Source of the DNA: Ostreococcus lucimarinus
Taxonomy: Eukaryota
Direction: 5' to 3' (one strand)
Length of the DNA: 64,000 nucleotides
Assembly (NCBI GenBank): GCA_000092065.1
Contig: CP000585.1
Positions within the stretch are counted from its first letter, which is position 1. Every line of letters starts with the position of its first letter. Positions 8,347-63,611 of the stretch are shown here, piece by piece. A program made the position numbers and the translations under genes. The notes beneath the pieces were generated by a model that worked only from the letters and a program-made list of their open reading frames with translations, ran no database searches and was not told where the DNA came from.

Positions 8347-9963
8347 ATGATCTCCAGCCTCGCCTGGGTGCCTCCCGGCGCCGCGAGCGCGTCGCCCAAG
8401 TACGCGGACGTCCCCGAAGAGGAGCTCGAGCGGCTCGCGCATCGCGCGCGCGACGTCGCGCGTCGCCGCGACTCGCGACGGCGCGACTCCGACGCCTCGG
8501 ACGCGTCGGAAGACGAGGATGGGATGACGGACGATGATTCGGACGCGTCGAGCGGCGACGCGTCGGACGAGAGCGACTGGGAAGAGGTCGAGGCGGACGC
8601 GGAGGAGGATTTGGACGAAATGGCGGCGGACGAAGAAGACGCGAAAGAAACGACGACCAAGGCGGTGGCGAAGGCGAAGGCGGTGGCGAAAGCGGCGAAA
8701 GGAATGGTTGATGATCTCGCGGAACTGAACATGGACGCGTACGACGATGAAGAGGAGGATGAACGCGCGGCGGCGGGACGGTTGTTCGGAAGCGGACGCA
8801 TGACGCACTACGACGGAAACGAGGACGATCCGTACATGACGATTAAGGATAGCGATGACGACGAGGATGAGATGCCGGACGATATGACGATGGCGGAGAC
8901 GGATTTGGTGATATTGGCGGCGCGAACGGACGAGGATGTGTCGCATTTGGAGGTGTGGGTGTACGAGGAGGCGGGAGTGACGGGGAACGCGGAGACGAAT
9001 TTGTACGTGCATCACGACGTGCTTTTACCGGCGTTTCCGTTGAGTGTGGCGTGGATGAATTGCGCACCCAAGAGCGGGACGAATGAAGTCAACTGTGCGG
9101 CGATCGGGACGATGTATCCAGGGATCGAGATTTGGGATTTGGATTGCGTGGACGCCGTCGAGCCGGTGACGACGCTGGGGGGATATTCAGACGAGGCGAT
9201 CAAGGCTGCGAGTAAAAAGGGTAAGAAGGGCGGCAAGAAAGAGTCGAAAGCGTTGAAAGGCGGCTCACACGAAGACGCCGTCATGGGATTGTCGTGGAAT
9301 CGCGAGTTTAGAAACGTCCTGGCGTCGGCGAGCGCCGACACGACGGTTAAGATTTGGGACATCGCGACGGAAACCGCCTCGCAAACGCTGAATCATCACA
9401 AAGGGAAAGTGCAGGCGTGCGAATGGAACCCAGCTGAACCTACTGTGCTTCTCACAGGATCTTACGATAAAACGGCTCAAGTTGTAGACGTCCGCGCGCC
9501 CGATAATGCATCACTTACGTGGAAAGTCGGCGCCGACGTCGAGAGCGCAATTTGGCACGTCGGATCGCCGACGCAGTTTTTAGTATCGAACGAAGATGGG
9601 CTCGTGATGTGCTTCGATACACGCATGGGATCAAAGTCGGACTGTGTTTTCAAGCTCCAGGCGCACGACAAGGCCACAACAGGGCTGAGCATGGCGTCTG
9701 GTGCGCCCAACCTATTGACGACGTGCTCCACGGACAAGTCGATCAAATTGTGGGATTTGAACGATGGTAAACCGTCCTTACTGTGTCAGCACTCTCCTCA
9801 AGTGGGAGCTATTTTTGCGTGTGGATTTTCGCCTTCGGTGCCGTATTTGATAGCCGCCGCTGGCTCCAAGGGCACCGTGGCGGTTTGGGACATCCTGTCG
9901 GAAGCCGCAGTCAAGCAAACTCACGGAAAAACTCTCGAACAATACTATCGCGTGTCAAAGTAA
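8347..9963 (+). CDS. PWP1: Periodic tryptophan protein 1 (PWP1), WD40 repeat ribosome-biogenesis factor
   Basis: The N-terminus MISSLAWVPPGAAS is the SSLAWVPRG motif of PWP1. There is an acidic Asp/Glu tract, then WD40 repeats (SWNREFRNVLASASADTTVKIWD, GSYDKTAQVVDVR, CSTDKSIKLWD). It is a full single-exon ORF of 538 aa. Confidence 0.8.
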   Translation: MISSLAWVPPGAASASPKYADVPEEELERLAHRARDVARRRDSRRRDSDASDASEDEDGMTDDDSDASSGDASDESDWEEVEADAEEDLDEMAADEEDAKETTTKAVAKAKAVAKAAKGMVDDLAELNMDAYDDEEEDERAAAGRLFGSGRMTHYDGNEDDPYMTIKDSDDDEDEMPDDMTMAETDLVILAARTDEDVSHLEVWVYEEAGVTGNAETNLYVHHDVLLPAFPLSVAWMNCAPKSGTNEVNCAAIGTMYPGIEIWDLDCVDAVEPVTTLGGYSDEAIKAASKKGKKGGKKESKALKGGSHEDAVMGLSWNREFRNVLASASADTTVKIWDIATETASQTLNHHKGKVQACEWNPAEPTVLLTGSYDKTAQVVDVRAPDNASLTWKVGADVESAIWHVGSPTQFLVSNEDGLVMCFDTRMGSKSDCVFKLQAHDKATTGLSMASGAPNLLTTCSTDKSIKLWDLNDGKPSLLCQHSPQVGAIFACGFSPSVPYLIAAAGSKGTVAVWDILSEAAVKQTHGKTLEQYYRVSK

Positions 9964-9997
9964 TAAAAACTACCAATCACTAGATTTCACTACAAAG

Positions 9998-12268: not shown

Positions 12269-12603
12269 GGTTCGCGTCTCTCTTCCGTCGTCGTCGGCGT
12301 CGTCGTTCGCACGAAGGGCGCGGCGCTGAAAGCGTCTTTACCTTCGTCTTCGTCGCGAGACCGCGCGCGTCGGTCGGTCGGTCGTGACGCGCGCGCGCGA
12401 CTGGCGCACGATCGCGGGGCGAGAATGCGCCGGCGAGGCGGCGAGACGCAAGGTTGCTTGTTATTATTTCAACGCGGCGGCGCCGAGGCCCCTACGCGAC
12501 GCGTCGTGCGCCGTGATAAGTAGTAAAGTATACGAAAGCGCATATTAAGTCGCAACATCGCTTCGGACGACCGAAGGAGTGCGTTATTGACGTTTACGTT
12601 AAT

Positions 12604-12677
12604 GACTGTTAACGACGACGACTGTTCGACGCCGGTTATTGACTGTTAACGACGACGACTGTTCGACGCCGGTTATT
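12604..12677. repeat. Tandem duplication of a 37-bp unit (GACTGTTAACGACGACGACTGTTCGACGCCGGTTATT x2)
   Basis: Two adjacent identical copies were read directly in the sequence. They lie in the 3' flank of the AMT gene and the 5' flank of CDC5. Confidence 0.8.
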
Positions 12678-12693
12678 GAGGGGAGTAATATCG

Positions 12694-53571: not shown

Positions 53572-55086
53572 ATGGCGCGCGCGAAGATGACGTCGAGGCG
53601 CGCGCCCGGCGGTAAGGTCCGCCGTCCGCAGTTCACCGTCGGGTCGCCTCGCGCGCCCGCGCGCGATCGCGTCGGCGCGAGCGACGCCGCGCGGCGCAAC
53701 CGCACGCTCGCGCGCGTCTTCGCGCTCGGCGAGGATTGGACGGTGGCGGACGCGCGCGCGCGCGAGCGAGCGTTCCTCGCCGAGTGCGACGACGGCGCGT
53801 GGACCGGGCTGACGACGTACGACGCGCTGGAGGAACACGGGCTGTTCACGGCGGTGGTGGAGGCGGGATGGCACGAATTGTGTCGAGCGCTCGGCGTCGA
53901 CGAGGACGAACGCGCGGCGTACGGACCGTGGCGGTACGTTCCGGGACGGATTTCGCACGAAGCGGTGCCGTGGGATGATTTCGACGAAATGTATTGGAAG
54001 CACAAGGCGAAGGGACTCGTGGACGACGATTTGATCGAGACTTTAGAAGACGAAGGCGACGAAGACGAATACGTCACGACGCACGCCAAGCTTTCTCGCG
54101 ACGACGTGGCGTCGCTTCTGGAGGAGTACGGTAAGCGTTACCTGTTCCTCATCGTCCGCGAATTTGAAGGCGCCGACCACGTGGCGGCGAAGAGCCTAGC
54201 GTTGGACGCCAATATGGAGTACGTGCGGCACCAGCACGAGCAGAAGAGCGCGCACCCGGGCGTGCCCATGGCGAGGCTTTTAGATCCGAAAGAGCTCTCT
54301 TTCGACGAAATCAAGGCTATGTATAAGGCGGCGGGGCTGCGCGTAGGAAAGAACGCCAAGCGCGAGTCGCTTCTCAGAGAACTCGTCATTGAGGACAGAG
54401 CGCTCGAGCTCGACGCGTACGGAAAGGCGTTCGCAAAAGTTGTGAAGCGGCTCGACGTGGAGACCAAAAAGTTGCAGGACAAAATAGAAAAAGCCGTGAA
54501 CAAAGCCGTCAAGTCCGTGATCATCGACAAGTGGGACACCGATCGCAAAAATGATTTCCTCGCCACTCACGACCATTGGAGCGACGAGCGAAAGAAGGCT
54601 TGGCACGATGGCGTTGCCAGTCGATTGAAGAAGACGCAGAACGCGAAAAAGGTGCAGCCGAAGACGACGAAAGCGCAGCCGAAGACGACGAAAGCGCAGC
54701 CGAAGACGACGAAAGCGCAGCCGAAGACGACGAAAGCGCAGGCTAATAAACCGGCGAAACCCAAACGAAAACGAAACGATCCGTTGGTCACGTCGGACTT
54801 CGCCGTCGGGATGGAATTGTACGTCCGAGGCGCGAAAGGCGAGACGTGGCACGCCGAGGTGACGAAAGTGCGACCGTCGAACGCGAAGTGCCCGATCGAG
54901 GTAGCTTGGCTCGTCAAGCAAAGCGATGATGCATACGTGTACTGGGACTGCGCGCACAGAGACGTGATCGATTTGCGCACCGTCCTCGAGACGCACGCGC
55001 CCGGGCACTTTCCAGCCGGGAAACGCGCGCGGTGCGTCGCGTGCGAGGCGGCGAAAACCACGTGCGCCAAGCGCGCGAAGACGTGA
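53572..55086 (+). CDS. Hypothetical protein with (KAQPKTT)x4 repeat and C-terminal Tudor/chromo-barrel-like region
   Basis: The 504-aa ORF contains four perfect 21-nt tandem units (54655..54738) encoding KAQPKTT. A basic tract KPAKPKRKRN follows. The block DFAVGMELYVRGAKGETWHAEVTKVRPSNAKCPIEVAWLVKQSDDAYVYWD resembles a Tudor/Agenet-type barrel (inference). Confidence 0.5.
   Translation: MARAKMTSRRAPGGKVRRPQFTVGSPRAPARDRVGASDAARRNRTLARVFALGEDWTVADARARERAFLAECDDGAWTGLTTYDALEEHGLFTAVVEAGWHELCRALGVDEDERAAYGPWRYVPGRISHEAVPWDDFDEMYWKHKAKGLVDDDLIETLEDEGDEDEYVTTHAKLSRDDVASLLEEYGKRYLFLIVREFEGADHVAAKSLALDANMEYVRHQHEQKSAHPGVPMARLLDPKELSFDEIKAMYKAAGLRVGKNAKRESLLRELVIEDRALELDAYGKAFAKVVKRLDVETKKLQDKIEKAVNKAVKSVIIDKWDTDRKNDFLATHDHWSDERKKAWHDGVASRLKKTQNAKKVQPKTTKAQPKTTKAQPKTTKAQPKTTKAQANKPAKPKRKRNDPLVTSDFAVGMELYVRGAKGETWHAEVTKVRPSNAKCPIEVAWLVKQSDDAYVYWDCAHRDVIDLRTVLETHAPGHFPAGKRARCVACEAAKTTCAKRAKT
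54652..54741 (+). repeat. Four perfect tandem 21-nt coding repeats (CAGCCGAAGACGACGAAAGCG) encoding (KAQPKTT)4
   Basis: The units are identical at the nucleotide level. They lie inside the CDS 53572..55086. Confidence 0.85.
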
Positions 55087-57641: not shown

Positions 57642-58961
57642 ATGGAGCGCGAGTCGGCGCCGATACGCGCCGCGCGTCGAGCGTTCGGCGCGACGGACGA
57701 CGACGCGCGCGCGAGCGCGAGGGACGGCGCGCGCGCGCGCGGGCGAGGGCCAACACCAAAACCAAAGGCGGAGCTCGCGCGCGGAGGCGCGCTGGCGAGC
57801 GCGCGGAGCGCGACGCTGGCGCTGGCGAGCCTGTGCGCGATCGCGGTGGTGAGCGCGCGACTGGACGCCGCGTCGAGGGGCGCGCGGGCGAGCGCGGTGG
57901 TGGTGGGAACGACGACGAGGACGAGGACGACGGCGACGGCGACGCTGCGCGAGGACGAGGCGGTGGAGCCGGAGTTGCGCGTGGGCGATCGCAGCGTGGC
58001 GTACGTCGCCAAGGGATGGAACGCGGAGCGAAGATTGATAGGGGACGATAAGATCGAGGCGATTTGGGAAGGACCGGCGGCGGAGAACGCGGCGGGGGAG
58101 TTTGAGGCGACGAAGCCGAAGGGCGCGCTGTTGGCGCTGCACGGTTGTCATCATAGCGCGAAGGACTTCTTCGCGACGAACACGAAGTGCTCGCAGTGTC
58201 GAGGACTTGCGCAAGAAATGGCGATTACACGCACGGCGCTGAATCGAGGATACGTCGTGTTGGCGATTTCGTCGTTGGGGACGTGTTGGAGCAAGGACAT
58301 CGACGCGCCGCGCGTGCAGGCGGTGTTGGACGTCTTTTACAACGACACCGCGCTGAGTGACTTGCCATTGTTTGCGTTTGGTGCGTCGAGCGGTGGTTCG
58401 TTTGTGGGAGCGATGCCGCAAATGCAACTGACGCCGAAGGCGGCGGGTTTAATTATTCAAATCGCTCCGGGACCGACGGCGTCGGGCGTCGTCGGCGAAG
58501 TTTTGGCGGATTACCCGCCGACGGTGTTCTCGCACATGCCGCGCGACGCGCGCACCGCCGAGTTCATCGCAGCGTCGATCGCAGACTTCCGCAACGCCGG
58601 CGTTCGCATAATTGAATCTCGTCTAGAGCCGAGAGCGATCGACGACGCATATTTCTACGAACAAAGTTTTGGACGAGTCTCTGAAGAGGAGAGCGCGGCG
58701 ATGGTCGCTTCTCTTCGCTCCTTTAACTTGATCGACGCCCAGGGCTTGCTCACGGAGGATCCGCGTTTGTTCGACGACGATCATATCATCATGATCAAAC
58801 GACACGCACCGGAGTGGGATAGCTTGCTCGCCGACCAGAGCGATACGCGCGAGTTATTAAACGTCGCGTACGCCATGCACGAGCTCAGCGCGCAGGACTT
58901 TAGCAAGAACTTTGCGTGGCTCGTTCGTTCGCACGCGCGCGTCGCGCGCTCGACGTCTTAG
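57642..58961 (+). CDS. Alpha/beta-hydrolase-like (esterase/lipase) type II membrane protein
   Basis: A signal-anchor (ALASARSATLALASLCAIAVVSA) is present. FAFGASSGGSF is a GxSxG nucleophile elbow, with HGCHHS upstream. The first plausible ATG is 57642 (MERESAPIR). The gene is divergent from the previous gene, with a (CGATT)6 microsatellite in the shared promoter. Confidence 0.5.
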   Translation: MERESAPIRAARRAFGATDDDARASARDGARARGRGPTPKPKAELARGGALASARSATLALASLCAIAVVSARLDAASRGARASAVVVGTTTRTRTTATATLREDEAVEPELRVGDRSVAYVAKGWNAERRLIGDDKIEAIWEGPAAENAAGEFEATKPKGALLALHGCHHSAKDFFATNTKCSQCRGLAQEMAITRTALNRGYVVLAISSLGTCWSKDIDAPRVQAVLDVFYNDTALSDLPLFAFGASSGGSFVGAMPQMQLTPKAAGLIIQIAPGPTASGVVGEVLADYPPTVFSHMPRDARTAEFIAASIADFRNAGVRIIESRLEPRAIDDAYFYEQSFGRVSEEESAAMVASLRSFNLIDAQGLLTEDPRLFDDDHIIMIKRHAPEWDSLLADQSDTRELLNVAYAMHELSAQDFSKNFAWLVRSHARVARSTS

Positions 58962-59008: not shown

Positions 59009-60037
59009 TTAATCCGACGAGGTTTTAAGCTTCTGAAACTCTTCGTCCAACTCGTCTGTCGCCGACCGCGTCGACGAGCCGTGCTTCTTCTTTGACAGGT
59101 GTTCGGATACATCGGCGTCGTCCTCGACGTCGTCATCTTTGGACGAGTGGCTCGACGAGTGATGCTTCTTCGACGAAGAGTGCTTTGAAGAGAGTTTCGT
59201 GCTCTTCTCTTCTTCTTCTTCTTCTTCTTCTTCTTCTTCTTCTTCTTCTTCTTCGTCGCGATGGCTATGTTTGGAGTGTTTCGAGTGCTTGGAATGGTGA
59301 TGACTGTGACCGATTTTTGCGACGTAATCGACCCCGGGACACTCTGTGGCGTGTATGTTCAAATCGTCGCACACGGCCGGAGGGCAGTACGGCCAACCGT
59401 CCATGGGATCGTCCACGCTTTTCAACATGCACATTCTACACGGCGTCTCGCCCGGCTTCTGACACGCGCTCGGCACGCCCTCGTGGTTCGCGCACTCCCA
59501 ATCGCGAAAGGCGTGACGCCCGGCGTTACGATTGCCGACATCCGTCGAGCAATCACCGAGATCGTACTTCTTCTCCTTCGATCTCGTCTCCACGCCTTCG
59601 CACCCAGAGACTTCGTACTTGTCGCACACCCACGAGCTACACTTCGCCGTGCCCGACCCCTCTTTCGACGCTTCCGAGCCGGCGAGATGACAAAACTGGC
59701 ACCCGTGCGACCCGACGCAGTTCGACGGCACTCCCTCGTCGTCGGTGCAGTGCTTGTTGTACTGCTGATACAGCCCGATCGCTCGATCGCCGTGCGACGC
59801 GTCGCAATCCACCTTCGGCGGCGGCGGCGGCCGCGGCGGATGATGCGGATGCGGCGGCGGCGGCGTCGGCGGCGGCATCGGCGGCGTCGGCGGCGGCATC
59901 GGCGGCGGCATCGGCGGCGCCGGCGGCGACTCCGCCCCGATCCCGAACCCTCCGTCCCACCCCCGTCGCGCGAGCGCCAGCGCGCCGACGCACGCCGCCG
60001 CCGCCGCCGCGCCGACGCGTCCTCGCCACCGCCCCAT
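59009..60037 (-). CDS. Secreted cysteine-rich protein with Pro-rich linker and His/Ser/Lys plus poly-Glu C-terminal tail
   Basis: A signal peptide MGRWRGRVGAAAAAACVGALALA is followed by PPAPPMPPPMPPPTPPMPPPTPPPPHPHHPPRPPPPP. A 160-aa domain then contains about 22 Cys (CTDDEGVPSNCVGSHGCQFCHLAG...CSSWVCDKYEVSGCEG...CRMCMLKSVDDPMDGWPYCPPAVCDD). The tail is HSHHHSKHSKHSKHSHRD followed by E17 encoded by (GAA)n and Ser/Lys/His. It is the C-terminal 342 aa of track ORF 59009..61090. Confidence 0.55.
   Translation of the reverse strand: MGRWRGRVGAAAAAACVGALALARRGWDGGFGIGAESPPAPPMPPPMPPPTPPMPPPTPPPPHPHHPPRPPPPPKVDCDASHGDRAIGLYQQYNKHCTDDEGVPSNCVGSHGCQFCHLAGSEASKEGSGTAKCSSWVCDKYEVSGCEGVETRSKEKKYDLGDCSTDVGNRNAGRHAFRDWECANHEGVPSACQKPGETPCRMCMLKSVDDPMDGWPYCPPAVCDDLNIHATECPGVDYVAKIGHSHHHSKHSKHSKHSHRDEEEEEEEEEEEEEEEEKSTKLSSKHSSSKKHHSSSHSSKDDDVEDDADVSEHLSKKKHGSSTRSATDELDEEFQKLKTSSD
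59207..59255 (-). repeat. (GAA)16 trinucleotide microsatellite inside the CDS, encoding poly-Glu
   Basis: The plus strand reads (TTC)n. It translates to E17 in the secreted Cys-rich protein. Confidence 0.85.
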
Positions 60038-60416
60038 CTCGCGCCCGCGCGCGCGCGCCGCGTCCCCGCCGCGTCCCCGCTCGACGTCTTCGTCCTCGCG
60101 CGCGTCCTCGCGCGCGCGCGCGTCCTCGCGCGTTCGCCGCGCGCGTCCGCGCGTCGCCTCGTCGTCGTCGTCGCTCGCGCTCGATCCCGCGCCCGACGAC
60201 GCGCGCGCCGTCCGCGCGTCGCGCGCCGACGCGCGTTCGCCGCGAAGGAGCGCCTCGCGCTCGTCGCGCGACGACCGCGGCATCCTCGCCCGCGCCGTCG
60301 TCTCGCGCGCGCGACGACGCCGTCGCGATGGTGTTGCGCGCGCGGCGTTACGAAAACCCGTAACACACCGCACACGCGTGCGATCGCGCGCGCGCGTCCC
60401 GTCCCATCGCGCGCCG

Positions 60417-60424
60417 TATTTAAG
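60417..60424 (+). promoter_or_regulatory. TATA box (TATTTAAG) about 90 bp upstream of the PsaG start codon
   Basis: This is an isolated AT-rich octamer in a sequence context of over 70% GC. Its position fits a core promoter for the PsaG exon 1 proposed at 60515. Confidence 0.45.
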
Positions 60425-60514
60425 CCCCGAGGGACTCGCGCTCGAGTCGCGACTCGTCGACGAGATCGGATCCGTCGATCGCGCGAAGATACGCCCGCAC
60501 ACCCCGACGACGAC

Positions 60515-61102
60515 GATGCTCGCGCGCACGACCGCACCGACTCGCACGACCGCCACGCTGCGCAGGTGCGCGCGAAGCGCGACGCGAATCGCGGCGCGGC
60601 GCGACCGCGCGCGCGACCGGAGACCGAGGACGCGCGACCGGAGACCGAGGACGCGAGGACGAGGGAATCGTCGCGCGAGGCGCGGCGAGGCGAGCGATCG
60701 CGCGCGCGAACGGACGAGAGGACTGACGAGACGCGATGGTGACGAATGAATAGCCGCGTGGCGAAGCAAACGCGCACGGCGAAGCGCGGCGCGCGCGTCG
60801 CGGCGCGCGCGTTCGATGACGTGAACGTCGTGATCTCGTCGGCGAACGCGATTTGCCTGGCGTTGGGACGATTCGTGTTTTTGCCGTACCAACGCGCGCA
60901 AGTCGAACGCGTGGGCGCGCCGACGCAAAACGGACAGACGCACTTCGCGGCGGGCGACTCGCGCGCGGAGGAGGCGTCCTTCATCGTGTCGACGAACGAT
61001 CCGGCTGGGTTCACGATCGTGGACCTGCTCGCGTGGGGGTCCATCGGGCACGCCGTCGGATTTCTCGCGCTCGCGTCCCAGTCGGCGCAAACGATGTTGT
61101 GA
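60515..61102 (+). CDS. PSAG: Photosystem I reaction centre subunit PSI-G (PsaG/PsaK family), two exons: join(60515..60564, 60754..61102)
   Basis: Track ORF 60746..61102 encodes [71 protein letters not shown]. This matches Arabidopsis PsaG ([71 protein letters not shown]). Upstream exon 60515..60564 (MLARTTAPTRTTATLR) ends in AG followed by a GTGCGC donor. The 189-bp intron has GACTGAC 25 nt before the TAG acceptor at 60751-60753. The phase-2 join gives a 132-aa precursor with a typical transit peptide. A TATTTAAG TATA box lies at 60417-60424. Confidence 0.65.
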
Positions 61103-61202
61103 GCGTCGCCGCCGCCTCTAGTGGGTTTGTGATCGTATGAAAGACCGAACATAAGTCAATAATTCAATCGCGCTACGCTAAGAATGCTACTTTCTATGTG
61201 AG

Positions 61203-63611
61203 CTACGTGTGAGGCGGGGGGCGAAGAAACTGCCGCGCGTGCGCGCTCAACTCGCCGGCGTTTTCGAAATCCGACGCCGAGACAAAGGCGTTGACGCGCT
61301 CGAGCTTGAGCAAACGCAACGCGTCGGCGTTCAAATCGAGATCGAAATCGTCGTGAAGTTTTGAAATCGTGCGCGTCAACGCGTCGACGTTTGCGAGATC
61401 GGTCTCGTAGGTCAAGTTCACGCACTCGCGCTGGTGCGCTCGCAAGACGCTCGCCGTCGCCTCGTACCATCGCTTGTCCTCTCGAATGAGATTTCTGAAC
61501 GTTTTCTCGATAAACTTCACCCGCACGTTCGCGGACGTGACGTTCGGATCGCGCGCGGTGATGTTTTCCGCGTCGAAAGGCTCGGCAGCCTCTCGAATCT
61601 GCTGGAACGGCGCGTCGCCGTTCACCGCACGCATCGACGACGCGTACATGTCGAGCTTGTTTTCGCGACTCAAGCACAACAGCACGGGGTCTTCCGTAGC
61701 GGCGTCCAAGATGGCGCTGAGAACATCTTCCGAATGTTTGCTCGTCTCGGGCGTTGAATGGATGTGCGCGCCGATGATGGATACGTACACCTTGTCCACG
61801 CCAGCCTCCCACGCTCGGCTCAATACTTCGTTGACGAACTCACCCGGATACGTCAGCGAGGCGTCAATCGTGGCATCCTTGACGCCGATGTCTTGCAAGT
61901 ACTTTCGGAGCTTTGAACGCCAAGACGTTTCGTCGTCTTTGTCGGGGAGTTCGTCCACCGACCACCAATCGCCAAGGGTGATGTAATTCGCAAAAAACGA
62001 ATCCGTTCGCACCTGGCCGTCTCGCTCCCACAACGTGGACGACGTCGGATGATTGGAAGACGTCGCAAGCGCTTCACCGAGAAGTGACGCGCCGCCGCGC
62101 AAAGGCGACGAAGCGAGCACGAGACGGGCTTTTTTATACACGCCCTCGGTTTCGTGCAATCGCACGCGCGTGACGAGCGAGCTCGTAGCCTCGGACGAGA
62201 GCACGCGAACGAAAGACAGCGCCCACTTGTGCACGAGATCTTCATCTGCCGGGATGTTCTTCTCGAGCCATTCCACCACCATGGCTTGTCGCTCTTGATT
62301 CGTGCACCCATCCTGCCAACTCGCGCCGTGAAACGAAAAGTGGTCGATAGCGTACGATTGCGGGTACGCGCTGGCGATCGACGTGCACGGAAGAGTCGTT
62401 TTCCAAAACGTCCCGTCCGCCTCCTCCACGAGCGCGTTTGAGAGCGACAACGGATTCCAATCATCGTTGCCAGATGTCACACGCCGCCACGTCTGCGTCA
62501 CGTACTTAGTGAACGACGATTTCGTACCATCTAAATCGCTCCCATCCACCGCCTTGCCGTTATTCATCATCCACCGCATGCCAGGATCGTTCTTGGCGTC
62601 TTCGTGCGTGACTTGCTTGACGCACGTATCGAACTCATTTTCGCCGCATCCGAGCGGGTACGCGACGTCGCGATCGAGCCTCAGTATCGTGTCTCTCAAA
62701 TCGTTCGCACGAATGATGTGCGACAACCACACAGGACCCGTGATCGCGTTCGCGATGCACCGCTTGCCGAAATCTATGTTTTGCAGGTATCCGTCCGAGG
62801 AGGTGTCGTTGAACAAACTTCGAAACACGCTCGCTCCGGGCGTGAGCGCGCCGAATATCCCAGCGCTAAAGAACCTCGAGTCCCCGGGGTCGGCCACCAT
62901 GAACACCTCCTTGTTCGCCCGCAACGTCTTATGAAACAACGGCGTGATGTCCTTGAACAACTCCACGTTCGTGTCCAAGTACAATCCGCCGTGACGAAAC
63001 AACACCTCGTACTTCATCAAATCCACCAACATCGAATACACGTTCGATCCCGTGAGTTGATGAAACGCCCGCCCGCGCTCGAGCGTCGCCAGCGTAATCG
63101 GAAAGTTCCTCTCATTAATGTCTCCCTCCGTCCACAGCCGCATCTCCCACCCAGCCGCCTCCAACACCCTTCGGTTGCGCTCGAAAATCATTCGCTTCAC
63201 CCCCGGCACCTCGCTCCCGAGCCAAATCTCGTGCGCCACGCGCACGAACGCCCCCGCGTCGCTCTGTTTCGCCAGCATCTCCTCCCTGGCCACCATCCCA
63301 CACACGCCCAGCGTCAGCATCGTCGCCACGACGATCGGATGCGTCGCCCACGTCGTCGTCGCGCGCAGCCAGCCGCGTCGTCGCTCGGGGTGTTGACGCG
63401 TCGTCGCGTCGCCGCGCTCGACGTCCGGCGCGTCATCGCGCGCGCGCGCGAGCAGCGCGAGCGACTCGTCGCCGCCGGCGATCGCCGCCGACCGCGCGCC
63501 GTCGCCGACGCCCATCGCCGCGTCGTCTGCCGTCCGCTCGCCGATGGTGTTACGCCGCGCGCGAACTTCGAGGTCGATACGAAACGCCGTCTTGGTTTGC
63601 GCACCATGCAA
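61203..63611 (-). CDS. GT32-like glycosyltransferase (DXD sugar-binding region) with large uncharacterised C-terminal domain
   Basis: After a signal-anchor (THPIVVATMLTLGVCGMVA) comes IWLGSEVPGVKRMIFERNRRVLEAAGWEMRLWTEGD...SNVYSMLVDLMKYEVLFRHGGLYLDTNVE. This matches the Gly_transf_sug (OCH1/MIPC-synthase-type) region including the DxD motif. The following roughly 550 aa have no recognised domain. Confidence 0.6.
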   Translation of the reverse strand: MHGAQTKTAFRIDLEVRARRNTIGERTADDAAMGVGDGARSAAIAGGDESLALLARARDDAPDVERGDATTRQHPERRRGWLRATTTWATHPIVVATMLTLGVCGMVAREEMLAKQSDAGAFVRVAHEIWLGSEVPGVKRMIFERNRRVLEAAGWEMRLWTEGDINERNFPITLATLERGRAFHQLTGSNVYSMLVDLMKYEVLFRHGGLYLDTNVELFKDITPLFHKTLRANKEVFMVADPGDSRFFSAGIFGALTPGASVFRSLFNDTSSDGYLQNIDFGKRCIANAITGPVWLSHIIRANDLRDTILRLDRDVAYPLGCGENEFDTCVKQVTHEDAKNDPGMRWMMNNGKAVDGSDLDGTKSSFTKYVTQTWRRVTSGNDDWNPLSLSNALVEEADGTFWKTTLPCTSIASAYPQSYAIDHFSFHGASWQDGCTNQERQAMVVEWLEKNIPADEDLVHKWALSFVRVLSSEATSSLVTRVRLHETEGVYKKARLVLASSPLRGGASLLGEALATSSNHPTSSTLWERDGQVRTDSFFANYITLGDWWSVDELPDKDDETSWRSKLRKYLQDIGVKDATIDASLTYPGEFVNEVLSRAWEAGVDKVYVSIIGAHIHSTPETSKHSEDVLSAILDAATEDPVLLCLSRENKLDMYASSMRAVNGDAPFQQIREAAEPFDAENITARDPNVTSANVRVKFIEKTFRNLIREDKRWYEATASVLRAHQRECVNLTYETDLANVDALTRTISKLHDDFDLDLNADALRLLKLERVNAFVSASDFENAGELSAHARQFLRPPPHT

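What the first reader, a model, noticed from the sequence alone, without database searches (positions are those of the whole stretch)
59009..60037. Unusual secreted protein with Pro-rich linker, 22-Cys domain, and His-rich plus poly-Glu tail
The protein has a signal peptide, then (PPMPPPT)n-like proline repeats, then a densely disulfide-bonded domain with no obvious family. The tail HSHHHSKHSKHSKHSHRD + E17 + SSKHSSSKKHHSSSHSSKDDD is a composition typical of metal-binding (His) and cation-binding (polyGlu) tails. It could be a cell-surface or extracellular metal-sequestering or matrix protein. The poly-Glu is encoded by a pure (GAA)16 microsatellite, so the tract length is probably polymorphic between strains.
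Basis: partly seen in the sequence, partly recalled or inferred. Interest (0 to 1): 0.55.

Follow-up and report, generated by a model that had tools for sequence, protein, structure and literature searches.

The report
Membrane-anchored cysteine-module protein, polymorphic poly-Glu tail
This is a real but apparently unannotated gene of the tiny marine green alga Ostreococcus lucimarinus, encoding a membrane-anchored protein from an undescribed algal family that has a conserved sorting signal, two copies of a cysteine-rich module with no known structural relative, and a charged tail whose poly-glutamate length varies between wild strains.

Summary
The window is Ostreococcus lucimarinus CCE9901. 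Orthologues show that the gene starts 246 nt further upstream (CDS 59009-60283, minus strand, 424 aa). An 89-aa charged tail precedes it and carries an E-x-x-x-L-L motif.

That motif lies before the membrane segment in 21 of 25 family members, against 1.4 expected by chance. Flanking charges indicate N-in, type II topology.

The "22-Cys domain" has 16 Cys, arranged as two copies of a ~72-aa 8-Cys module. About 45 cluster representatives, all unnamed, carry it. No full-length one has more than two copies, and 40 of 51 sequences show both.

The module has no Pfam match. Its AlphaFold model is confident (pLDDT 92.8) but has no PDB or viral structural match.

The tail is as described, except the tract is E16, encoded by (GAA)15GAG. 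It ranges from E16 to E23 in nine near-identical alleles, so the polymorphism prediction is confirmed. The tail is missing in more distant orthologues.

Best reading: an adaptor-sorted, stalked type II membrane protein with a lineage-specific ion-binding appendage. Metal binding is untested.

The parts
59009..60283 (-). Corrected CDS: 424 aa plus stop, single exon.
   Evidence: Upstream ATG and N-terminal motif are conserved in L001, P0053 and the eight environmental alleles L003-L010. The internal ATG is not conserved (ACG in L001).
60017..60283 (-). N-terminal charged, low-complexity tail (aa 1-89), inferred to be cytosolic.
   Evidence: Lys/Arg counts are 5 before and 2 after the hydrophobic segment. 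The same bias holds in 23 of 25 family members. GC3 is 0.91.
60245..60262 (-). EREALL (aa 8-13): acidic dileucine-type [DE]xxxL[LI] motif.
   Evidence: Present upstream of the membrane segment in 21 of 25 family members. Shuffles of the same N-tails give 1.36 expected, with a maximum of 6 in 2000 shuffles.
60035..60037 (-).
   Evidence: Replaced by ACG in L001. P0053 and P0054 have no Met at this position.
59969..60016 (-). Hydrophobic segment VGAAAAAACVGALALA (aa 90-105): signal anchor. It is short and Ala-rich, and is followed by an ALA|RR site that would fit signal peptidase.
   Evidence: Best 19-aa Kyte-Doolittle window is 1.3 here, against 1.5-2.7 in 24 relatives.
59813..59929 (-). Pro-rich stalk SPPAPPMPPPMPPPTPPMPPPTPPPPHPHHPPRPPPPPK (aa 119-157), encoded by a degenerate CCG-rich tandem array.
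   Evidence: TRF array 59816-59928; spacer 52% Pro; 41-56% Pro in the orthologue subfamily.
59594..59812 (-). 8-Cys module A (aa 158-230).
   Evidence: Single-module HMM hit with i-E-value 5.5e-25. Six-frame scan of the window finds it at 59594-59809.
59333..59557 (-). 8-Cys module B (aa 243-317).
   Evidence: HMM i-E-value 2.1e-24. Homologous to module A: BLASTP 30% identity, E 6e-10 in a two-sequence search. AlphaFold2 model pLDDT 92.8.
59255..59308 (-). His/Ser/Lys block HSHHHSKHSKHSKHSHRD (aa 326-343).
59207..59254 (-). Poly-Glu E16, encoded by the (GAA)15GAG microsatellite (aa 344-359).
   Evidence: Length is E16-E23 across nine alleles. The codon choice runs against the local bias: GAG:GAA is 20:7 in the rest of the gene.
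59012..59206 (-). Ser/Lys/His plus acidic C-terminal tail (aa 360-424).
   Evidence: The whole tail is 30% D/E, 13% H and 36% K/S. The formal PASK definition is met by 20-aa windows starting at aa 336-348, around the poly-Glu tract.
60284..60745 (.). Divergent intergenic region shared with the PsaG gene (60746-61102, plus strand). It contains a perfect 21-bp x2.2 repeat at 60610-60655.
   Evidence: The PsaG/K gene and the target are adjacent in L001 and L002 as well.

Best explanation
The locus is a real, intron-less gene of Ostreococcus lucimarinus (59009-60283, minus strand). It encodes a 424-aa single-pass type II membrane protein. The protein belongs to an undescribed family found so far only in Mamiellophyceae-like sequences.

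Reading from the N-terminus:
1. A charged cytosolic tail whose only conserved feature is an E-x-x-x-L-L acidic dileucine motif.
2. A signal-anchor segment.
3. A polyproline stalk.
4. Two tandem copies of a ~72-aa, 8-Cys module, probably with four disulfides each.
5. A clade-specific tail of His/Ser/Lys and acidic residues, including a slippage-prone (GAA)n poly-Glu tract.

Inferred mechanism. The protein inserts N-in/C-out, so the Cys modules and the tail face the lumen or the cell exterior. Clathrin-adaptor (AP) complexes recognise the ExxxLL motif and route the protein between the trans-Golgi or plasma membrane and an endosomal or vacuolar compartment. The stalk holds the two modules away from the membrane, where they act as the conserved binding unit for an unknown ligand. 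The His/Glu tail is an accessory, fast-evolving polyelectrolyte that would bind divalent cations, or polyanions at acidic pH, with low affinity and high capacity.

Shown here: gene reality, the corrected start, the domain architecture, family-wide conservation of the motif and of the two-module layout, lack of known relatives, and tract polymorphism.

Inferred only: topology, AP-dependent sorting, disulfide bonding, and ion binding.
For: Organism and synteny:
- Both flanking ORFs and the glycosyltransferase-like ORF beyond PsaG are exact matches to O. lucimarinus CCE9901 proteins.
- The order PsaG/K gene, target, 439-aa neighbour is conserved in L001 and L002.

Start codon:
-.

Sorting motif:
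- ExxxLL is present in 21 of 25 members, against 1.36 expected.
- It always lies N-terminal to a hydrophobic segment with Kyte-Doolittle score 1.3-2.7.
- The positive-inside bias holds in 23 of 25 members.

Modules:
- The two-module layout recurs across the family: 40 of 51 sequences show two hits, the other 11 show one, and none shows more.
- Eight Cys columns are conserved (six invariant, two at >=90%) across 67 modules.
- One subfamily gains two extra Cys together, which fits disulfides rather than metal ligands.
- The AlphaFold2 module model has pLDDT 92.8.

Selection and expression:
- dN/dS is 0.31.
- A Mantoniella antarctica transcriptome fragment sits in the cluster of orthologue P0055.

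Tail:
- The tract ranges from E16 to E23.

Background on the motif:
- (D/E)XXXL(L/I) is the sorting signal read by AP complexes. The EKQTLL of an Arabidopsis tonoplast transporter binds AP-1 subunits (PMC9366067).
Against: - In the window protein itself the hydrophobic segment is short (16 aa) and Ala-rich (Kyte-Doolittle 1.3). It ends in ALA|RR, so cleavage by signal peptidase and release of a soluble ectodomain cannot be excluded.
- No TM, signal-peptide or topology predictor was available, and there is no localisation or expression data for this species.
- L001 has a 1-nt frame break between the anchor and the stalk.
- The ligand of the modules is unknown.
- The His/Glu tail is absent in the Micromonas/Mantoniella-like orthologues.
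Confidence: 0.55

Rival explanations
1. A soluble secreted or cell-surface protein made from Met83 (60037) with a cleavable signal peptide. Its function is extracellular metal sequestration or a matrix role, carried out by the His-rich and poly-Glu tail.
For: - MGRWRGR + VGAAAAAACVGALALA + ALA|RR looks like a textbook n/h/c signal peptide.
- The tail is 13% His and 30% Asp/Glu.
- There is a weak compositional resemblance to bone sialoprotein II (PF05432, E 0.041).
Against: - The Met83 codon is ACG in the 92% orthologue and absent in P0053 and P0054.
- The upstream ATG and the ExxxLL motif are conserved family-wide, which would be pointless in a 5' UTR.
- The tail is missing in more distant orthologues.
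- The BSP_II score of 14 bits is below the 25.1-bit cut-off.
- From my own knowledge, Ostreococcus has no wall or scales.
Confidence: 0.2
2. A luminal polyelectrolyte of an acidic, polyphosphate- and cation-rich vacuole (acidocalcisome-like). The ExxxLL motif sends the protein to the vacuole. There the His/Lys/Ser/acidic tail binds polyphosphate and/or Ca, Zn or Fe. This would work like the histidine-rich Ca-binding protein or calsequestrin of muscle, or like PASK and His-repeat polyP targets.
For: - N-terminal ExxxLL motifs are used as vacuolar and tonoplast signals.
- The tail meets the formal PASK definition (>=75% D/E/S in 20 aa plus a Lys), with 11 qualifying windows. So do 11 of 33 family representatives in total, the window protein included.
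- His tracts and PASK peptides bind polyP, more strongly at acidic pH (10.1101/2023.04.10.536149).
- Acidic runs of up to 17 residues and His5-7 runs recur in other subfamilies.
Against: - This is purely compositional. The longest His run in the window protein is only 3, whereas the cited work used 5 or more.
- 22 of 33 representatives lack a PASK window.
- The orthologues without any tail keep the stalk and modules.
- No localisation data exist.
Confidence: 0.1
3. A cell-surface recognition molecule, such as a prasinovirus attachment site or a gamete or cell-cell recognition factor. Its variable tail would reflect diversifying or relaxed selection at the surface.
For: - Stalked display of two Cys modules and a lineage-restricted family.
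- The tail is rapidly evolving and length-polymorphic in natural populations.
Against: - No homologue or fold match was found in viral collections.
- The modules themselves are under purifying selection.
- The tract variation is fully explained by replication slippage of a pure GAA repeat that runs against codon bias.
- No functional data exist.
Confidence: 0.08
4. The opposite topology, with cytosolic, zinc-binding Cys modules (zinc-finger-like).
For: Weak profile match of the second half of the module to the piggyBac transposase Cys-rich domain (5lme_A, E 0.04).
Against: - The E-value is not significant and covers only half a module.
- The positive-inside bias points the C-terminus outward in 23 of 25 members.
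- A cytosolic ExxxLL motif requires the N-terminus to be inside.
- No His sits in the conserved ligand positions.
- Extra Cys appear in pairs.
- SPPPP-type stalks in orthologues are typical of secretory-pathway proteins.
Confidence: 0.04
5. Not a gene: a chance open frame in GC-rich DNA, one of several overlapping long ORFs at the locus.
For: Five other ORFs of 130-693 aa overlap the locus. The exact protein is absent from the 15-billion-protein collection under three candidate start codons.
Against: - About 45 homologous cluster representatives exist with invariant Cys.
- dN/dS is 0.31, and amino-acid identity is highest in this frame.
- Synteny is conserved.
- A relative is transcribed.
- The four shadow ORFs that were looked up are not in the collection either.
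Confidence: 0.01

Closest known systems
Type II endocytic or sorting receptors with an N-terminal dileucine signal, a stalk and C-terminal disulfide-rich binding domains (e.g. DC-SIGN/CD209, CD23, invariant chain CD74). Comparison drawn from my own knowledge.
   Same: The same order of parts: a cytosolic N-tail with an acidic or dileucine sorting motif, a single signal anchor, an extended neck or stalk, and then Cys-stabilised binding modules facing outward.
   Different: There is no sequence or fold relationship. The modules are not C-type lectin or any other Pfam domain. The stalk is polyproline rather than coiled-coil. Endocytosis and ligand binding are untested.
N-terminal acidic dileucine vacuolar signals: Arabidopsis tonoplast transporter EKQTLL binding AP-1 (PMC9366067), and yeast alkaline phosphatase Pho8, a type II protein using the AP-3 route (my own knowledge).
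   Same: An E-x-x-x-L-L motif close to the N-terminus of a membrane protein, upstream of the first membrane segment (EREALL at aa 8-13; ERAPLL at aa 3-9 in P0060, P0064 and P0075).
   Different: The cargo is not a transporter or enzyme. Binding to AP subunits was not tested, and the destination compartment is unknown.
Histidine-rich Ca-binding protein (HRC), calsequestrin and bone sialoprotein II: luminal or extracellular polyacidic ion-binding proteins.
   Same: His clusters next to long acidic runs and a poly-Glu tract. HRC also has a Cys-rich region (my own knowledge).
   Different: The resemblance is compositional only. The sole Pfam hit is BSP_II at 14 bits, below its 25.1-bit cut-off. 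No HRC or calsequestrin family was hit. The tail is not conserved in position or sequence across the family.
Hydroxyproline-rich glycoproteins and extensin-like stalks of green algae and plants.
   Same: A ~40-residue stretch that is >50% Pro, between the membrane and the globular modules. Orthologues carry SPPPP-type motifs (P0006, P0007, P0055, P0056).
   Different: The window's stalk has (M/T)PPP repeats and no Ser-Pro3-5 motif. Hydroxylation and glycosylation cannot be tested here.
PASK and His-repeat targets of inorganic polyphosphate (10.1101/2023.04.10.536149).
   Same: The tail meets the published sequence definition of a PASK cluster.
   Different: Known targets are nuclear or cytosolic. 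Here the longest His run is 3, against 5 or more in the cited work. No binding data exist.

Membership tests
   Met83 (60037) is ACG in L001 and absent in P0053 and P0054. The conserved start is at 60283.
   An ALA|RR (-3,-1) site exists after the hydrophobic core. No predictor or proteomic data were available.
Type II (N-in) signal-anchor membrane protein | A single hydrophobic segment after a sizeable N-terminal domain. | tested here: met
   89 aa precede the segment. Kyte-Doolittle score is 1.3 in the window (weak) and 1.5-2.7 in 24 relatives.
Type II (N-in) signal-anchor membrane protein | Positive-inside charge bias. | tested here: met
   Lys+Arg counts are 5 before and 2 after the segment in the window. 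The count before exceeds the count after in 23 of 25 members.
Type II (N-in) signal-anchor membrane protein | Experimentally determined topology. | not testable with these tools
   None available.
Acidic dileucine [DE]xxxL[LI] sorting signal | Motif present in a cytosolic, unstructured segment and conserved. | tested here: met
   EREALL at aa 8-13. Found in 21 of 25 members against 1.36 expected from shuffles.
Acidic dileucine [DE]xxxL[LI] sorting signal | Binding to AP-1, AP-2 or AP-3 hemicomplexes, with mis-sorting on LL-to-AA mutation. | not testable with these tools
   Requires experiments. The principle is taken from PMC9366067.
Any described Cys-rich extracellular domain (Pfam-A) | Profile match at or near the gathering threshold. 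| tested here: not met
   No family at E <= 0.1 over the modules in the window protein or in 9 diverse relatives.
Any solved protein fold (PDB) | Significant structural similarity of a confident model. | tested here: not met
Zinc-finger-like Cys-rich domain (piggyBac CRD) | Significant profile match covering the Zn ligands. | tested here: not met
   E 0.04, 17.6 bits, covering half a module only.
HRC / calsequestrin / BSP-II ion-binding proteins | Family profile match. | tested here: not met
   Only BSP_II was hit, at 14 bits against a 25.1-bit cut-off. There was no HRC or calsequestrin hit.
Extensin/HRGP stalk | Ser-(Pro)3-5 repeats. | tested here: not met
   The window stalk has SPPAPP and (M/T)PPP units only. 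SPPPP motifs occur in P0006, P0007, P0055 and P0056.
PASK cluster (polyP-interacting) | A 20-aa window with >=75% D/E/S and at least one Lys. | tested here: met
   11 qualifying windows starting at aa 336-348. Actual polyP binding was not tested.
Polymorphic coding microsatellite | A pure trinucleotide array whose copy number differs between otherwise near-identical alleles, in multiples of 3. | tested here: met
   (GAA)15 to (GAA)22 in nine alleles with 2-11 substitutions across the CDS.

The most novel reading that the evidence does not exclude
The gene is the founding, reference-unannotated member of a Mamiellophyceae-specific family. The family would have at least six or seven paralogous subfamilies of adaptor-sorted type II membrane proteins, all built on a previously unseen disulfide-rich fold. 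The family would form a dedicated luminal or surface binding system. One possibility is receptors that capture cations or another ligand at seawater pH and release it in acidified endosomes. Another is polyphosphate- and metal-organising proteins of the acidocalcisome-like vacuole in the smallest free-living eukaryotes.
Probability: 0.15. Interest if true: 0.7.

Novelty: new variant of a known kind. Interest (0 to 1): 0.45.

Why it matters
Mamiellophyceae (Ostreococcus, Micromonas, Bathycoccus) are globally abundant picophytoplankton with minimal genomes, so a lineage-specific family kept in several paralogues is likely to serve something important to them.

This family combines three features:
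- One of the clearest sorting-signal signatures I could compute (ExxxLL in 21 of 25 members).
- A confidently predicted module with no structural relative in the PDB.
- No named or accessioned member in any look-up.

It therefore appears to have escaped reference annotation, possibly because of GC-rich overlapping ORFs and low-complexity sequence.

The locus offers three practical uses:
- A ready handle on endomembrane trafficking in these cells.
- A candidate new fold for structural work.
- A naturally polymorphic (GAA)n marker that distinguishes O. lucimarinus-like strains in metagenomes.

If the charged tail does bind metals or polyphosphate, the gene would bear on trace-metal and phosphorus handling in oligotrophic seas.

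Tried and rejected
- AlphaFold2 on the two-module region with only 7 sequences failed (pLDDT 38.5). It was redone on one module with 67 sequences.
- The word-indexed homologue search with the single-module alignment found nothing. With the two-module alignment it returned 16 unnamed proteins.
- The afdb50 fold library was unavailable.
- PDB sequence searches gave nothing with the domain alone and only a weak piggyBac CRD match with the profile. I rejected that match as insignificant and inconsistent with the topology.
- The IMG/VR viral scan and the BFVD fold search found no viral relative.
- I tested whether the reference annotation instead carries one of the overlapping Arg-rich ORFs. Four shadow ORFs were looked up exactly and none is in the collection.
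- I tried to view the NCBI gene calls around the locus through the neighbour protein. Only an ENA contig came back, so whether the reference has a differently spliced model remains open.
- Literature searches for Ostreococcus with His-rich and Cys-rich proteins and for O. lucimarinus microsatellites found nothing about this gene.
- A six-frame scan of the window found no second copy of the module.
- The weak Pfam hits to BSP_II, TFIIF_alpha, CDC45 and CCD97, and to Zip in P0081, were rejected as low-complexity composition matches below their cut-offs.
Full report
**What is there**

It has a hydrophobic stretch, a Pro-rich stretch, a Cys-rich region and a tail of His/Ser/Lys, poly-Glu and acidic residues.

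Several counts are off. The 342-aa ORF has 17 Cys, 16 of them in the Cys region, not 22. The acidic tract is Asp followed by E16, encoded by (GAA)15 + GAG. It is the only period-3 array scoring >=80 in the whole 64-kb window. It also runs against local codon preference. Outside the tract the gene uses GAG:GAA at 20:7, and two neighbours use 20:6 and 36:14. This points to replication slippage.

**Organism and context**

Exact look-ups identify the flanking ORFs as Ostreococcus lucimarinus CCE9901 proteins on an 847,696-bp record:
- XP_001417683, a 439-aa predicted protein at 57642-58961 (+).
- XP_001417684, PsaG, at 60746-61102 (+).
- XP_001417925, a DXD glycosyltransferase-like protein at 61203-63515 (-).

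The target protein is not in that 15-billion-sequence collection under any of three candidate start codons. Four overlapping shadow ORFs are not there either. The gene therefore seems unannotated, or modelled differently, in the reference. I could not view the NCBI gene table directly.

The gene order PsaG/K, target, 439-aa neighbour is conserved in two more distant contigs, L001 and L002.

**The gene is real**

- Eight orthologues keep all 16 Cys invariant.
- Against the 92%-identical L001 copy, the Cys region has dN/dS 0.31. Amino-acid identity is highest in this frame, and three of the other five frames contain stops.
- GC3 (0.78) matches neighbouring genes.
- A Mantoniella antarctica transcriptome fragment falls in the cluster of orthologue P0055, so a relative is transcribed.

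**The start codon is upstream**

Gene calls in eight environmental O. lucimarinus-like contigs begin at or upstream of an ATG equivalent to window 60283, giving 426-442 aa. That alone only reflects a longest-ORF rule. Orthologues decide the matter:
- L001 keeps the upstream ATG and reads MARSSRSADERAALL, but it has ACG where the window has the 60037 ATG.
- P0053 (432 aa, 74% identical in the domain) starts MASFSSERESLLRG, against MPRSSRDEREALLRG in the window. It has no Met before its hydrophobic segment.

The corrected product is 424 aa (59009-60283).

**A family with a fixed architecture**

An exhaustive profile search of 1.84 billion cluster representatives found 46 proteins at E <= 1e-3, 22 of them at E <= 1e-10. 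One hit, P0073, looks like an unrelated bacterial repeat protein and was excluded.

None of them carries a name beyond "hypothetical protein", and none carries a UniRef or NCBI accession in the look-ups. Their composition is Mamiellophyceae-like.

A single-module HMM finds a ~72-aa unit twice in 40 of the 51 sequences scanned and once in the other 11; no sequence has more than two. The two copies in the window protein are homologous to each other (30% identity, E 6e-10 in a two-sequence search).

Across 67 modules, eight Cys columns are conserved. Six are invariant and two are at >=90%. The consensus is C-x8-G-x2-Q-x2-D-x2-C-x8-GC-x6-CRFC-x12-WPxCPxxVC-x6-GC. One subfamily adds two further Cys together, which is what an extra disulfide would look like.

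Upstream of the modules, every full-length member has a hydrophobic segment. Before that segment, 21 of 25 have [DE]xxxL[LI], and in 20 of those 21 it reads E-x-x-x-L-L. Shuffling the same N-tails gives 1.36 expected, with a maximum of 6 in 2000 trials. Lys+Arg counts are higher before the segment than after it in 23 of 25.

Together these features indicate N-in/C-out type II topology with a cytosolic acidic dileucine signal. This is the motif class read by AP adaptor complexes. One example is EKQTLL of an Arabidopsis tonoplast transporter binding AP-1 (PMC9366067).

In the window protein the hydrophobic segment is comparatively weak. It is 16 residues, Ala-rich, scores 1.3 on the Kyte-Doolittle scale, and ends ALA|RR. 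Cleavage therefore cannot be excluded.

**No known relatives for the module**

- No Pfam family matches the modules in the window protein or in nine diverse relatives.
- PDB sequence searches give nothing, or only an insignificant half-module match to the piggyBac Cys-rich domain (E 0.04).
- With 67 aligned modules, AlphaFold2 gives a confident model (pLDDT 92.8, pTM 0.80).
- Foldseek against PDB and BFVD returns nothing better than E 6.
- The AlphaFold database could not be searched.
- No viral homologue turned up.

**The tail**

The His/Ser/Lys plus acidic tail is conserved in composition in the Ostreococcus-like orthologues (P0001-P0005, P0053, P0054). It is absent in P0006, P0007, P0055 and P0056, which end just after module B.

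Other subfamilies place acidic runs (up to 14 residues) and His5-7 runs either in the tail or between the anchor and the modules. Charged disordered segments are thus a recurrent accessory rather than a fixed element.

The close relatives P0001 and P0002 read DEDDDEDE where the window has E16, so the pure repeat is recent.

In nine alleles that differ by only 2-11 substitutions, the tract is E16, E18 (four alleles), E19 (two), E21 and E23. The caveat is that eight of the nine alleles are metagenome assemblies.

The tail meets the published sequence definition of a PASK cluster. That is a lead, not evidence of polyphosphate binding.

**Interpretation**

The conserved core is ExxxLL tail, anchor, spacer or stalk, then two Cys modules. 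This is the layout of a sorted type II membrane protein that presents binding modules to the lumen or the cell exterior. By analogy only, it works like the stalked type II endocytic receptors of animals, or like vacuole-directed type II cargo.

The destination compartment, the ligand and the role of the charged tail are inferred. The tail may buffer cations, capture and release metal in a pH-dependent way, or interact with polyphosphate.

It is neither tested nor the conserved function, and the "secreted via signal peptide" part is not supported.

**Verdict**

This is a genuine, apparently unannotated gene. It defines an undescribed, lineage-restricted protein family with a probably new small disulfide-rich fold and an unusually clear sorting motif. 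It also carries a demonstrably polymorphic coding microsatellite. Interest is moderate: the architecture belongs to a familiar kind, while the domain and the family are new.

Noticed in passing
L001 about 9960-9990 (orthologue contig ena:ERZ10646527:contig_35883): A 1-nt indel between the anchor and the Pro stalk puts the N-tail and anchor in a different frame from the rest of the gene. The gene caller therefore started the protein at MPPPMPPP. This is either an assembly error in a G-rich run or a real frameshift.
   Followed up: partly
L010 and L007 (environmental alleles), N-tail region equivalent to window 60080-60330: L010 has an extra in-frame AREDED (18-nt tandem duplication) in the cytosolic tail. 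L007 has an additional in-frame upstream ATG that adds 16 residues. The low-complexity N-tail is therefore also length-polymorphic.
   Followed up: partly
Proteins P0080, P0082, P0085, P0090, P0092 (family members): This subfamily has 10-Cys modules, with the extra Cys gained in pairs. It also has a further conserved C-terminal Cys-rich domain (RFAAAGM..ESGPVDPLP...CPC) that has no Pfam match.
   Followed up: partly
window 57642-58961 (+): The convergent neighbour XP_001417683 (439 aa, "predicted protein") has no Pfam hit but contains a GASSGG stretch resembling a GxSxG nucleophile elbow. It stays adjacent to the target in L001, L002, L011 and L012. Its stop codon lies only 47 bp from the target's stop codon.
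   Followed up: no
window 60610-60655: A perfect 21-bp x2.2 tandem repeat (CGCGCGACCGGAGACCGAGGA) lies in the 462-bp divergent intergenic region between the target gene and PsaG.
   Followed up: no
window 54654-54741 and 12598-12679: Two further near-perfect tandem arrays: 21 bp x4.2 (100% matches) and 37 bp x2.2 (97% matches). Neither was examined.
   Followed up: no
window 61203-63611 (-): An ORF of 770-802 aa whose only Pfam hit is a short match to the glycosyltransferase DXD sugar-binding region (PF04488, E 1.2e-5). Environmental alleles vary from 770 to 812 aa.
   Followed up: no
window 59092-61152, both strands: Five overlapping ORFs of 130-693 aa, mostly Arg/Ala-rich, cover the same locus. 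They are typical shadow frames of GC-rich coding DNA. The four that were looked up are not in the protein collection.
   Followed up: yes
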